A stretch of 11,286 nt of DNA from Escherichia coli. Lineage in GTDB: Bacteria; Pseudomonadota; Gammaproteobacteria; Enterobacterales; Enterobacteriaceae. The DNA is taken from the NCBI RefSeq assembly GCF_003334765.1, contig NZ_QOWT01000056.1, one strand, 5' to 3'. How positions within the stretch are numbered: position 1 is the first letter of the stretch; each line of letters begins with the position of its first letter. Shown piece after piece: positions 7,810-10,605 of the stretch. Below the pieces are notes generated by a model. It searched no databases, had not been told where the DNA came from, and saw only the letters and a program-made list of their open reading frames with translations. The position numbers and the translations under genes were made by a program.

Positions 7810-10605
7810 ATGGAGATAATTATGAGAAACCTCTGTTTCTTACTGACGTTAGTGGCAACTCTGTTGCTCCCCGGGCGGCTGATTGCCGCCGCCTTACCGC
7901 AGGATGAAAAGTTAATTACCGGGCAACTGGACAATGGCTTGCGATATATGATTTATCCGCATGCTCATCCAAAGGATCAGGTAAATTTATGGCTGCAAAT
8001 TCATACCGGTTCATTGCAGGAAGAAGACAATGAGCGCGGCGTGGCTCATTTTGTAGAACATATGATGTTTAACGGCACAAAAACATGGCCGGGTAATAAA
8101 GTCATCGAAACATTTGAGTCAATGGGTCTGCGTTTTGGTCGCGATGTTAATGCCTATACCAGCTATGACGAAACGGTGTATCAGGTGAGTTTGCCGACTA
8201 CGCAGAAACAAAATCTGCAACAAGTGATGGCAATCTTCAGTGAATGGAGTAATGCCGCAACCTTTGAAAAACTCGAAGTAGACGCTGAACGTGGCGTAAT
8301 TACTGAGGAATGGCGTGCCCATCAGGATGCGAAATGGCGCACCTCTCAGGCGCGCCGCCCTTTCCTGCTGGCAAATACCCGTAATTTAGACCGTGAACCT
8401 ATCGGCCTGATGGATACTGTCGCCACGGTCACACCGGCACAATTGCGCCAATTTTATCAACGCTGGTATCAACCAAATAATATGACCTTTATCGTGGTCG
8501 GCGATATCGACAGTAAAGAAGCGCTGGCGCTGATAAAGGATAATTTAAGTAAGCTTCCGGCTAACAAAGCAGCTGAAAATCGCGTCTGGCCGACAAAAGC
8601 CGAAAACCACCTGCGCTTTAATATCATTAATGATAAAGAAAACCGGGTGAACGGCATCGCACTCTATTATCGCCTGCCAATGGTACAAGTGAACGATGAG
8701 CAAAGCTTTATCGAACAAGCTGAATGGAGCATGTTAGTTCAGCTGTTCAATCAACGTCTGCAGGAACGCATACAGTCGGGCGAGTTGAAGACTATTTCTG
8801 GCGGCACTGCGCGCAGCGTTAAAATTGCACCCGATTATCAGTCGCTGTTTTTCCGTGTAAATGCACGAGACGATAATATGCAGGATGCTGCGAATGCATT
8901 AATGGCAGAGTTGGCAACCATTGATCAGCATGGTTTTTCTGCTGAAGAACTCGATGATGTCAAATCTACCCGCCTCACCTGGCTGAAAAATGCGGTTGAT
9001 CAGCAAGCTGAACGTGATTTACGTATGCTGACCAGTCGCCTGGCATCCAGCTCATTAAATAATACGCCGTTCTTGTCGCCGGAAGAGACATATCAACTTT
9101 CGAAACGTCTGTGGCAGCAAATTACCGTGCAAAGTCTGGCGGAAAAATGGCAGCAGTTAAGAAAGAACCAGGACGCATTTTGGGAGCAAATGGTAAACAA
9201 TGAGGTTGCCGCCAAAAAAGCATTGTCTCCTGCGGCTATCCTGGCGCTGGAAAAGGAGTACGCCAACAAAAAGCTGGCGGCTTACGTCTTCCCAGGCAGA
9301 AATTTATCGTTAACAGTAGACGCAGACCCACAGGCGGAAATTAGCAGCAAAGAAACGCTGGCGGAGAATCTGACATCATTAACACTTTCCAATGGTGCCA
9401 GGGTTATTCTGGCAAAATCCGCGGGTGAAGAGCAAAAGCTACAAATTATTGCCGTATCGAATAAAGGCGATTTAAGTTTCCCTGCGCAGCAAAAATCACT
9501 TATCGCGCTGGCAAATAAAGCAGTTAGCGGAAGCGGCGTTGGCGAACTCTCCTCTTCCAGCCTGAAACGCTGGAGTGCGGAAAATTCGGTAACCATGAGC
9601 AGTAAAGTCAGTGGCATGAATACGTTGCTCTCCGTTAGCGCGCGGACTAATAACCCTGAACCTGGTTTTCAGTTGATTAACCAGCGAATCACCCACAGCA
9701 CGATTAACGATAATATTTGGGCATCGCTACAAAATGCTCAAATTCAGGCGTTGAAAACGCTCGACCAGCGTCCAGCGGAGAAATTCGCCCAGCAGATGTA
9801 TGAGACGCGCTATGCTGATGACCGCACGAAATTACTGCAAGAAAATCAGATTGCACAGTTTACTGCCGCAGATGCGCTGGCTGCCGATCGCCAATTGTTT
9901 TCATCTCCAGCGGATATCACGTTTGTCATTGTCGGTAATGTCGCAGAAGACAAACTCGTGGCGTTAATTACGCGTTACTTAGGATCAATCAAACACTCTG
10001 ATTCGCCATTAGCCGCAGGTAAACCATTAACTCGCGCGACGGACAACGCATCGGTTACTGTAAAAGAACAAAATGAACCTGTGGCACAGGTTTCACAGTG
10101 GAAGCGTTATGATTCCCGGACACCTGTTAATCTGCCGACGCGTATGGCGCTCGATGCTTTTAACGTCGCACTGGCAAAAGATCTACGTGTTAATATTCGT
10201 GAACAGGCATCTGGAGCATACAGCGTTTCTTCTCGCCTCTCGGTTGATCCTCAGGCCAAAGATATCAGTCATTTGCTGGCTTTTACTTGTCAACCAGAAC
10301 GACATGATGAACTGTTAACGTTAGCGAATGAAGTGATGGTTAAGCGTCTGGCTAAAGGGATCAGTGAGCAAGAACTGAATGAATACCAGCAAAACGTTCA
10401 GCGCAGCCTCGATATCCAACAGCGTAGCGTTCAACAATTAGCGAACACTATTGTAAATAGTCTTATTCAATATGACGATCCTGCAGCATGGACTGAGCAG
10501 GAGCAATTGTTGAAACAAATGACGGTAGAGAATGTTAACACTGCCGTTAAACAATATCTTTCTCATCCGGTAAATACTTATACCGGAGTATTATTGCCAA
10601 AATAA
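7810..10605 (+). CDS. pqqL: Periplasmic M16-family (pitrilysin-like) zinc metallopeptidase, 931 aa
   Basis: Inverted zinc-binding motif H-F-V-E-H at 8047-8061 (HxxEH). N-terminal signal peptide MRNLCFLLTLVATLLLPGRLIAAALP. The length is consistent with two tandem M16 modules in one chain. The second ATG at 7822 has the better Shine-Dalgarno (GGAGA 7812-7816, 5-nt spacing), so the true start may be 7822 (927 aa); the longest ORF is reported here. Confidence 0.9.
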   Translation: MEIIMRNLCFLLTLVATLLLPGRLIAAALPQDEKLITGQLDNGLRYMIYPHAHPKDQVNLWLQIHTGSLQEEDNERGVAHFVEHMMFNGTKTWPGNKVIETFESMGLRFGRDVNAYTSYDETVYQVSLPTTQKQNLQQVMAIFSEWSNAATFEKLEVDAERGVITEEWRAHQDAKWRTSQARRPFLLANTRNLDREPIGLMDTVATVTPAQLRQFYQRWYQPNNMTFIVVGDIDSKEALALIKDNLSKLPANKAAENRVWPTKAENHLRFNIINDKENRVNGIALYYRLPMVQVNDEQSFIEQAEWSMLVQLFNQRLQERIQSGELKTISGGTARSVKIAPDYQSLFFRVNARDDNMQDAANALMAELATIDQHGFSAEELDDVKSTRLTWLKNAVDQQAERDLRMLTSRLASSSLNNTPFLSPEETYQLSKRLWQQITVQSLAEKWQQLRKNQDAFWEQMVNNEVAAKKALSPAAILALEKEYANKKLAAYVFPGRNLSLTVDADPQAEISSKETLAENLTSLTLSNGARVILAKSAGEEQKLQIIAVSNKGDLSFPAQQKSLIALANKAVSGSGVGELSSSSLKRWSAENSVTMSSKVSGMNTLLSVSARTNNPEPGFQLINQRITHSTINDNIWASLQNAQIQALKTLDQRPAEKFAQQMYETRYADDRTKLLQENQIAQFTAADALAADRQLFSSPADITFVIVGNVAEDKLVALITRYLGSIKHSDSPLAAGKPLTRATDNASVTVKEQNEPVAQVSQWKRYDSRTPVNLPTRMALDAFNVALAKDLRVNIREQASGAYSVSSRLSVDPQAKDISHLLAFTCQPERHDELLTLANEVMVKRLAKGISEQELNEYQQNVQRSLDIQQRSVQQLANTIVNSLIQYDDPAAWTEQEQLLKQMTVENVNTAVKQYLSHPVNTYTGVLLPK

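What the first reader, a model, noticed from the sequence alone, without database searches (positions are those of the whole stretch)
8047..8061. PqqL has an intact inverted zincin motif (HFVEH) despite its historical naming after PQQ biosynthesis
H-F-V-E-H at residues 80-84 is the HxxEH signature of catalytically competent M16 peptidases, placed in the N-terminal module. The 931-aa size implies active and inactive M16 modules in a single chain forming a clamshell. Together with the signal peptide this points to a periplasmic endopeptidase acting on a folded or large substrate, rather than a cofactor-biosynthesis enzyme. E. coli K-12, as I recall, does not synthesise PQQ.
Basis: partly seen in the sequence, partly recalled or inferred. 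Interest (0 to 1): 0.4.

Follow-up and report, generated by a model that had tools for sequence, protein, structure and literature searches.

The report
PqqL: known active periplasmic zinc protease
The HFVEH motif is real and marks the working zinc site of E. coli PqqL, but PqqL's crystal structure, peptidase activity, periplasmic location and iron regulation were published in 2019, so this is a correct re-reading of known biology.

Summary
Bases 8047-8061 read CAT TTT GTA GAA CAT, which is H80-F-V-E83-H84 of the 931-aa ORF at 7810-10605. This ORF is E. coli pqqL, the last gene of the yddA-yddB-pqqL cluster.

The rest of the M16 catalytic set is present:
- E160 and E167 align with pitrilysin E162 and its third zinc ligand E169.
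- An R797/Y804 pair lies in the C-terminal half.
- All seven residues are invariant in 138 of 138 full-length relatives.

The C-terminal half is an ancient duplicate of the N-terminal half (hhalign E = 9e-35). It has lost every zinc ligand, so the chain is one active and one inactive module.

PDB 6OFS/6OFT are PqqL, with a metal bound at H80/H84. Grinter et al. 2019 showed peptidase activity, periplasmic location, signal-peptide cleavage (mature N-terminus AALPQD) and iron-dependent expression. They proposed a FusC-like role coupled to import through YddB. A 2025 review lists 80HFVEH84-E167.

Two caveats apply. The "despite its name" contrast is false, because PqqF of PQQ biosynthesis is itself an HxxEH M16 protease and pqqL was named for complementing pqqF mutants. 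A folded or large natural substrate is still only inferred.

Novelty: already known. Interest is low.

The parts
7810..10605 (+). pqqL coding sequence (931 codons plus TAA stop); M16-family zinc metallopeptidase
   Evidence: ORF list and translation. Identical to MG1655 b1494 'periplasmic metalloprotease' except L76R. PDB 6OFS covers residues 27-931.
7810..7887 (+). Signal peptide, residues 1-26 (MEIIMRNLCFLLTLVATLLLPGRLIA|A); an alternative start at M5 (7822) is preceded by GGAG at 7812-7815
   Evidence: Sequence. Edman N-terminus AALPQD of native PqqL (PMC6793856). The crystallised chain starts at A27. PGAP starts the gene at M5.
7948..8418 (+). Peptidase_M16 (PF00675) active domain, residues 47-203
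   Evidence: Pfam scan, E = 1.8e-40.
8047..8061 (+). Inverted zincin motif H80-F-V-E83-H84: two zinc-ligand histidines and the catalytic glutamate
   Evidence: Aligns with pitrilysin H88/E91/H92. Invariant in 138/138 relatives. Metal density at H80/H84 in the crystal.
8287..8310 (+). E160-R-G-V-I-T-E-E167 segment; E167 is the distal third zinc ligand and E160 the second conserved glutamate
   Evidence: MAFFT and profile alignments place E160 and E167 opposite pitrilysin E162 and E169. FusC has 'DDERKIILEEW' at the same place. Both are invariant in 138/138. Review Table 1 lists 80HFVEH84-E167.
8428..8967 (+). Peptidase_M16_C (PF05193) domain 2, residues 207-386
   Evidence: Pfam scan, E = 4.1e-29.
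9301..10602 (+). C-terminal inactive M16 module (about residues 498-931), a diverged duplicate of the N-terminal half without zinc ligands
   Evidence: hhalign of the family's N-half against its C-half: probability 99.9%, E = 9e-35, 12% identity. H80/E83/H84/E160/E167 are replaced by A/K/A/L/A. There is no second HxxEH. Pfam M16_C at 688-862.
10198..10221 (+). R797-x6-Y804 (REQASGAY): the R/Y pair of domain 4 that completes the M16 active site when the clamshell closes
   Evidence: Invariant in 138/138. The family profile aligns it with pitrilysin R792/Y799. Its role is described in review section 3.2.
5393..7765 (+). yddB, TonB-dependent outer-membrane transporter of the FusA type; proposed importer of PqqL's substrate
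   Evidence: PDB 6OFR is YddB. The next best match is the ferredoxin receptor FusA, 4ZGV, E = 4e-78. Annotation. A 43%-identical homologue lies next to a 40%-identical PqqL homologue in L004.
3670..5355 (+). yddA, fused ABC transporter with an SbmA/BacA-like membrane domain; first gene of the operon
   Evidence: NCBIfam matches to SbmA-type and ABC ATPase models, all below their curated cut-offs. Annotation. The syntenic homologue carries PF05992 SbmA_BacA + ABC_tran.
3666..3684 (.). Fur-box-like site GCTAATGATAACCATTCCC overlapping the yddA start codon
   Evidence: It is the best match to the 19-bp Fur consensus in the whole window (15/19, the only site at that level). It matches the putative Fur box published for CFT073. 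A promoter-like site lies at 3628-3657.

Best explanation
The motif is the zinc-binding catalytic site of PqqL, a secreted, single-chain, four-domain M16 metalloendopeptidase of the FusC/PqqL subfamily.

H80 and H84 hold the zinc, together with E167 about 83 residues downstream. E83 activates the water that attacks the peptide bond. The N-terminal half carries this site. The C-terminal half is a degenerate duplicate that has lost all zinc ligands but supplies R797/Y804, which complete the substrate-binding site when the two halves close like a clamshell.

The gene is the last of the Fur-repressed yddA-yddB-pqqL operon. The most likely working model, published by Grinter et al., has three steps:
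1. The FusA-like TonB-dependent transporter YddB brings a specific, still unidentified protein, probably an iron-containing one, into the periplasm.
2. PqqL captures it in an open state, closes around it and cuts it.
3. YddA moves a product across the inner membrane.

What is shown: the motif and the full catalytic residue set, the fold, the bound metal, peptidase activity on short peptides, periplasmic location and iron/Fur regulation. What is inferred: the coupling to YddB import, the nature of the substrate and the role of YddA.
For: Sequence evidence:
- HFVEH lies at residues 80-84, in frame, and is unique in the protein.
- Pfam finds M16 at 47-203 and M16_C at 207-386 and 688-862.
- E160 and E167 align with pitrilysin E162 and E169 and with the FusC ER..EE segment.
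- H80, E83, H84, E160, E167, R797 and Y804 are invariant in 138/138 full-length relatives.
- The C-terminal half is a duplicate without ligands.

Structures:
- 6OFS/6OFT are PqqL, and FusC (6B03/6BRS) is a close full-length structural relative at E about 1e-57.
- YddB is 6OFR and is related to FusA.

Literature:
- Metal at H80/H84, cleavage of F/Y-F/Y-V/A peptides, periplasmic fractionation, AALPQD N-terminus, induction by bipyridine and urine, and open/closed conformations by SAXS (PMC6793856).
- Co-transcription of the three genes, de-repression in a fur mutant and a fitness defect in systemic infection (PMC3855560).
- The listing 80HFVEH84-E167 (PMC12731061).

Context:
- The Fur-box match at the yddA start.
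- Distant homologues keep a TonB-dependent transporter as upstream neighbour.
Against: - No natural substrate is known. Purified PqqL did not cut plant or human ferredoxins or globins.
- Deleting yddB or pqqL gave no growth defect in iron-limited LB.
- In CFT073, transcript levels did not respond to iron chelation alone.
- No active-site substitution of PqqL (E83 or E167) was found in the papers read, so the dependence of activity on this motif rests on family analogy.
- The published description names only H80 and H84 as metal ligands. E167 is assigned by alignment and by a review table.
- YddA has also been described as a putative multidrug efflux pump (title of PMC9728188), which does not fit an import role.
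Confidence: 0.88

Rival explanations
1. PqqL is a PqqF-type protease whose real job is cofactor biosynthesis: trimming the PqqA precursor peptide on the way to PQQ.
For: The gene was named because an E. coli fragment carrying it complemented pqqE/pqqF mutants of Methylobacterium organophilum (cited in PMC3855560). PqqF is also an HxxEH M16 protease. PqqL gives a weak match to the PqqF model TIGR02110 (E = 5.8e-13).
Against: - The TIGR02110 score is 48.5 bits against a curated cut-off of 320 and covers only the generic M16 domain, residues 40-262.
- The window holds no pqqA-E genes. The neighbours are yddB and gadB.
- E. coli cannot make PQQ and imports it through PqqU/YncD.
- PqqL is exported to the periplasm.
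- The operon is under Fur control.
Confidence: 0.02
2. PqqL is a general periplasmic peptide-scavenging protease like pitrilysin. It degrades small unfolded peptides, its position next to yddB is incidental, and no folded protein is imported.
For: The only demonstrated activity is on short fluorogenic peptides with an F/Y-F/Y-V/A motif. None of the candidate proteins was cleaved. There is no phenotype in iron-limited LB. E. coli has a second periplasmic M16 enzyme, PtrA, with the same catalytic residues.
Against: - The specificity is narrow: a small subset of 512 peptide pools was cleaved.
- The gene is co-transcribed with yddB.
- The pairing of transporter and protease is kept in relatives only 33-40% identical, including one under ECF-sigma/FecR control.
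- YddB is most similar to the ferredoxin importer FusA.
- PqqL is far closer to FusC (E = 1.6e-58, full length) than to PtrA, where BLASTP aligns only the HxxEH region. The pitrilysin model scores 33 bits against a cut-off of 765.
Confidence: 0.1
3. The motif is a relic. PqqL is a catalytically dead M16 scaffold or chaperone, like the core proteins of the cytochrome bc1 complex.
For: Inactive M16 members exist, and bc1 core 1 proteins are among the PDB matches.
Against: All catalytic residues are intact and invariant across 138 relatives. Metal is bound in the crystal and peptidase activity was measured.
Confidence: 0.01

Closest known systems
E. coli PqqL itself (UniProt P31828; PDB 6OFS, 6OFT; Grinter et al. 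2019, PLoS Genet 15:e1008435)
   Same: The sequence is identical over 931 residues apart from residue 76. The operon and the motif numbering H80/H84 are the same.
   Different: The window has R76, where K-12 and the crystallised protein have L76. R76 is the majority E. coli allele (exact 57-mer in 3716 of 4639 matching records) and the commonest residue at that position in the family (67/138).
FusC of Pectobacterium atrosepticum (PDB 6B03, 6B05, 6BRS), the periplasmic ferredoxin-processing M16 protease of the Fus system
   Same: Both are single-chain proteins of about 900-930 aa with four M16 domains. FusC aligns over the full length (E = 1.6e-58). It carries HMVEH and the ER..EE segment at matching positions and is listed as 80HMVEH84-E165. 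Both are periplasmic, iron-regulated and paired with a FusA/YddB-type transporter.
   Different: The relationship is distant (only 197-202 bits over the full length, against 1989 bits for PqqL itself). The FusC substrate (plant ferredoxin) is known, and PqqL does not cleave it. PqqL crystallised fully open and FusC closed.
Pitrilysin / protease III (PtrA, E. coli; PDB 1Q2L), M16A
   Same: It is a periplasmic single-chain M16 clamshell. H88/E91/H92/E162/E169 and R792/Y799 align with PqqL H80/E83/H84/E160/E167 and R797/Y804.
   Different: It is a paralogue, not an orthologue. BLASTP aligns only 56 residues around the motif, and the NF011681 pitrilysin model scores 33 bits against a cut-off of 765. 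PqqL has 83 residues between H84 and the distal Glu, against 77 in PtrA. MEROPS files PqqL under M16B. PtrA lies between recB and recC, not next to a transporter.
PqqF (Serratia sp. FS14, PDB 5CIO), the M16A protease of PQQ biosynthesis
   Same: It is an HxxEH M16 protease (51HLLEH55-E132). It is the source of the pqqL name, through complementation of pqqF mutants.
   Different: The TIGR02110 score is 48.5 bits against a cut-off of 320. PqqF acts on the 25-residue PqqA peptide inside a pqq operon. PqqL is in a Fur-controlled transporter operon in an organism that makes no PQQ.
PDB 9LDY 'Peptidase, M16 family' (916 aa)
   Same: It is the closest solved structure other than PqqL itself (E = 9.5e-82 over residues 28-849). 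It has HFLEH and 'EERGVIQEEWR' at the matching positions.
   Different: The organism and function were not available through the tools. I did not examine it further.

Membership tests
M16 (pitrilysin/insulinase) zinc metallopeptidases | Inverted zincin motif HxxEH in the N-terminal domain | tested here: met
   HFVEH at residues 80-84 inside the PF00675 match. Invariant in 138/138 relatives.
M16 (pitrilysin/insulinase) zinc metallopeptidases | Distal glutamate, about 75-85 residues downstream, as third zinc ligand, plus the conserved Glu seven residues before it (ExxxxxxE) | tested here: met
   E160 and E167 align with pitrilysin E162 and E169 in both MAFFT and profile alignments. Both are invariant in 138/138. 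The review lists E167. Direct coordination geometry was not inspected here.
M16 (pitrilysin/insulinase) zinc metallopeptidases | Four-domain architecture of alpha/beta M16 and M16_C domains forming two homologous halves | tested here: met
   Pfam finds M16 + M16_C + M16_C. hhalign of the N-half against the C-half gives probability 99.9%, E = 9e-35. Crystal structure 6OFS.
M16 (pitrilysin/insulinase) zinc metallopeptidases | R/Y pair in domain 4 that completes the active site | tested here: met
   R797-x6-Y804 is invariant in 138/138 and aligns with pitrilysin R792/Y799. The feature is described in the review.
M16 (pitrilysin/insulinase) zinc metallopeptidases | Metal-dependent peptide-bond hydrolysis | not testable with these tools
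   Published: bound metal in 6OFS and cleavage of peptides from the REPLi library (PMC6793856). No active-site mutant of PqqL was found.
FusC/PqqL subfamily (protease-associated import systems) | Single polypeptide of about 900-950 aa that is closer to FusC than to M16A or M16C enzymes | tested here: met
   FusC aligns over the full length at E = 1.6e-58, whereas IDE and MPP match only the N-terminal domain. 138 of the 150 best representatives are 880-1150 aa long.
FusC/PqqL subfamily (protease-associated import systems) | Encoded next to a FusA/YddB-type TonB-dependent transporter | tested here: met
   yddB ends 44 nt upstream of pqqL. YddB is 6OFR and its next best match is FusA, 4ZGV. The same pairing is found in L004 and L005.
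FusC/PqqL subfamily (protease-associated import systems) | Sec signal peptide and periplasmic location | tested here: met
   The sequence has a hydrophobic leader and an Ala-rich cleavage region. Published Edman sequence AALPQD and cell fractionation.
FusC/PqqL subfamily (protease-associated import systems) | Cleaves a protein imported by the partner transporter | not testable with these tools
   The substrate is unknown, and the proteins tested were not cleaved. The 2025 review lists the substrate as n/a.
PqqF (PQQ biosynthesis protease, TIGR02110) | Score above the curated equivalog cut-off (320 bits) | tested here: not met
   48.5 bits, covering residues 40-262 only.
PqqF (PQQ biosynthesis protease, TIGR02110) | Located with pqqABCDE in an organism that makes PQQ | tested here: not met
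   The window's genes are ydeN, ydeM, yddA, yddB, pqqL and gadB. E. coli is unable to make PQQ.
Pitrilysin orthologue (NF011681) | Score above the curated cut-off (765 bits) | tested here: not met
   33.4 bits. The true ptrA lies elsewhere in the E. coli chromosome.

The most novel reading that the evidence does not exclude
No new reading comes out of the motif itself. The most interesting possibility the evidence leaves open is the published but unproven one: PqqL is the obligate periplasmic processing step for a specific host or microbiota iron protein taken up through YddB, and its catalytic site (E83/E167) is what makes the operon a fitness factor in bloodstream infection. A smaller untested point is that all biochemistry used the minority K-12 allele L76. 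The majority allele R76, four residues before H80, could change activity or specificity.
Probability: 0.4. Interest if true: 0.45.

Novelty: already known. Interest (0 to 1): 0.08.

Why it matters
The finding matters little as a discovery. The gene is annotated 'periplasmic metalloprotease' in MG1655. Its structure, activity, location and regulation are published, and the motif with its distal Glu is tabulated in a review.

It does illustrate how a historical gene name misleads. It also points at what is still open: the natural substrate of the YddB/PqqL system, which contributes to uropathogenic E. coli fitness in systemic infection. A catalytic-site substitution of PqqL was not found in the papers read and would be the obvious trapping tool for finding that substrate.

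Tried and rejected
- **BLASTP of PqqL against PtrA** aligned only 56 residues around HxxEH and could not place the distal Glu. MAFFT with FusC and 9LDY fragments, and a family profile, settled it.
- **BLASTP of the N-half against the C-half** gave only a weak 62-residue match. Profile-profile hhalign was needed to show the duplication and the lost ligands.
- **NCBIfam** gave no family for YddB and only sub-threshold matches for PqqL (YfmH, YfmF, PqqF, pitrilysin). None of these was accepted as a membership.
An experimental structure of this very protein (6OFS, residues 27-931) already answers the question.
- **The consensus terminator scan** found nothing convincing between yddB and pqqL or directly after pqqL. 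The hairpins seen by eye there remain unverified.
- **The L76R difference as a possible active-site change.** It is instead the majority allele.
- **An IS5-mediated deletion of ydeP-safA-ydeO**, first suspected from the two-piece match to strain RR1. That piece is simply another IS5 copy in RR1. Whether ydeO upstream of the IS5 is intact cannot be seen, because the window starts inside the IS5.
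Full report
**What the window is.** The 11,286-base window is the E. coli chromosomal segment ydeN-ydeM-yddA-yddB-pqqL, followed by the gadB promoter region and the start of gadB (ORFs; annotation of matching records). From base 75 onward it is collinear with K-12 MG1655 and differs by 5 substitutions in 11,212 bases. The ORF at 7810-10605 (+) encodes 931 residues. It is identical to MG1655 b1494 PqqL except at residue 76, which is R here and L in K-12. MG1655's current annotation already calls the product 'periplasmic metalloprotease'.

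**Check of the observation.** Bases 8047-8061 read CAT TTT GTA GAA CAT and encode H80-F-V-E83-H84 in the pqqL frame.
- It is the only HxxEH in the protein.
- A protein of this composition would carry one by chance in about 1.1% of shuffles (228 of 20,000).
- The motif sits inside the Pfam Peptidase_M16 match (residues 47-203, E = 1.8e-40).
- The numbering depends on the start codon. K-12 uses M1 (7810). PGAP uses M5 (7822), which has a GGAG six bases upstream. The published numbering (H80, H84) follows M1.

**The rest of the catalytic apparatus.**
- BLASTP against E. coli pitrilysin, fetched from MG1655, aligned only the motif region.
- I therefore aligned the N-terminal domains of PqqL and PtrA together with the FusC and 9LDY fragments returned by the PDB search. 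PqqL H80/E83/H84/E160/E167 fall on pitrilysin H88/E91/H92/E162/E169.
- A search of 1.84 billion representative proteins gave 3,300 relatives at E <= 1e-30.
- In a MAFFT alignment of the 138 full-length proteins among the best 150, mostly 25-47% identical, H80, E83, H84, E160 and E167 are invariant. So is an R797-x6-Y804 pair in the last domain.
- A profile built from that alignment places E160/E167 on PtrA E162/E169 and R797/Y804 on PtrA R792/Y799.
- The R/Y pair is the domain-4 element that completes the M16 active site (review PMC12731061, section 3.2). The same review tabulates PqqL as 80HFVEH84-E167 and FusC as 80HMVEH84-E165.

**Active plus inactive module.** Pfam sees M16 + M16_C in the N-terminal half and only M16_C (688-862) in the C-terminal half. 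A plain BLASTP of the two halves is nearly blank. A profile-profile comparison of the family's N-halves and C-halves gives 99.9% probability (E = 9e-35) at 12% identity.

**What is already known.**
- The PDB holds PqqL itself: 6OFS covers residues 27-931 and 6OFT residues 27-497.
- The neighbouring YddB is 6OFR, and its next best PDB match is the ferredoxin receptor FusA, 4ZGV.
- Grinter et al. 2019 (PMC6793856) report several results:
  - PqqL forms two clam-shell halves and has metal density coordinated by H80 and H84 of the H-x-x-E-H motif.
  - It cleaves peptides with an F/Y-F/Y-V/A motif out of 512 pools.
  - It fractionates with the periplasm and has the mature N-terminus AALPQD.
  - It is induced by iron chelation and in urine.
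  - It samples open and closed states in solution.
- They propose that YddB/PqqL is a FusA/FusC-like protease-associated import system.
- Subashchandrabose et al. 2013 (PMC3855560) showed co-transcription of yddA-yddB-pqqL, de-repression in a fur mutant and a fitness defect of yddB and pqqL mutants in systemic infection. They also noted a putative Fur box over the yddA start codon.
- My consensus scan finds that same site, 3666-3684, as the single best Fur-box match in the window at 15 of 19 positions.

**The PQQ name.** The name comes from an E. coli fragment that complemented pqqE and pqqF mutants of Methylobacterium organophilum (cited). PqqF is itself an M16 protease with an intact HxxEH (51HLLEH55-E132). 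Four other facts argue against a PQQ role:
- PqqL scores 48.5 bits against the PqqF model, whose cut-off is 320.
- No pqq genes lie nearby.
- E. coli cannot make PQQ and imports it through PqqU/YncD.
- PqqL is periplasmic and Fur-controlled.

**What remains inferred.**
- No natural substrate is known. Plant and human ferredoxins and globins were not cleaved, and the 2025 review lists the substrate as n/a.
- Deletion mutants grow normally in iron-limited LB.
- I found no active-site substitution of PqqL in the papers read.
- 'Acts on a folded or large substrate' is thus an analogy with FusC. It is supported by gene context, which I could confirm in distant relatives. A 40%-identical PqqL homologue follows a yddA-like gene and a 43%-identical yddB homologue. 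A 33%-identical one follows an ECF-sigma/FecR/STN-domain transporter set.

**Verdict.** It is a correct re-derivation of published structure and function for a named E. coli protein, so interest is low. The open question lies outside the finding: the identity of the substrate, and whether catalysis at this site explains the in vivo fitness effect.

Noticed in passing
window 1-86: The window begins inside an IS5 element. Bases 1-74 are the IS5 left end, with the terminal repeat ggaaggtgcgaataag on the minus strand at 59-74. TTAG follows at 75-78, and then the last 12 bases of ydeO (stop codon at 84-86). The insertion therefore sits in the last codons of the acid-response regulator gene ydeO, about 400 bp upstream of ydeN. 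The exact junction is in none of 5,426 complete E. coli genomes. Strains WEM25, B27, MB30 and the Res13 isolates carry an IS5-like ISKpn26 at the same spot, in both orientations, which suggests a recurrent insertion hotspot.
   Followed up: partly
window 8035-8037 (PqqL codon 76): PqqL has R76 (CGC) here, whereas K-12 MG1655, RR1 and the crystallised protein (6OFS/6OFT) have L76. The position is four residues before the zinc ligand H80. The R76 57-mer is exact in 3716 of 4639 matching E. coli records, and R is the commonest residue at this position in the family (67/138, against L in 22/138). All published PqqL biochemistry therefore used a minority allele.
   Followed up: partly
window 7810-7824: The start codon is ambiguous. 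The K-12 annotation starts pqqL at ATG 7810 (931 aa, MEIIMRN...). PGAP records start at ATG 7822 (927 aa, MRN...), which has GGAG at 7812-7815 six bases upstream and gives a more typical signal-peptide n-region. The mature protein is the same either way, but residue numbers shift by 4.
   Followed up: partly
window 3628-3684: A promoter-like site (TTGCCA-18-CACAAT with TG, 3628-3657) lies just upstream of the Fur-box match at 3666-3684, which overlaps the annotated yddA ATG (3670). If that is the promoter, the leader would be only a few bases long with no Shine-Dalgarno sequence. Either yddA is close to leaderless or the start or promoter is placed differently.
   Followed up: no
window 7784-7805 and 10612-10642: Two hairpins were seen by eye. 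The first, CCGGG-N8-CCCGG followed by TTTT, lies in the 44-nt gap between yddB and pqqL and could modulate read-through or mRNA stability. The second, CCCCGTCAAC-ACATC-GTTGGCGGGG followed by ATTTT, lies just after the pqqL stop and looks like the operon terminator. Neither met the consensus scan's criteria.
   Followed up: no
window 3670-5355 (yddA): YddA combines an SbmA/BacA-like membrane domain with an ABC ATPase (NCBIfam matches to PRK12369 and SbmA PRK11098, both below cut-off). The syntenic homologue in L004 carries PF05992 SbmA_BacA + ABC_tran. This fits a peptide or cofactor importer downstream of PqqL, yet one paper's title describes YddA as a putative multidrug efflux pump.
   Followed up: no
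window 455-3379 (ydeN, ydeM) and about 3345-3467 minus strand (yneP): Upstream of the operon lie a sulfatase-like gene (ydeN) and an anaerobic sulfatase-maturing radical SAM enzyme (ydeM; TIGR03942, 505 bits against a cut-off of 349). The mechanical ORFs start at TTG codons further upstream than the annotated starts. MG1655 also annotates a 40-codon gene, yneP, on the opposite strand overlapping the ydeM 3' end.
   Followed up: no
E. coli population (whole window): All 5,426 complete E. coli genomes match some part of the window, but only 4,582 hold at least 80% of it in one place. The motif-encoding 57-mer is found in 4,638 genomes. Roughly 15% of genomes therefore lack or have disrupted this pqqL segment, and some records show pqqL split by insertion elements ('M16 family metallopeptidase (x2)').
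   Followed up: no
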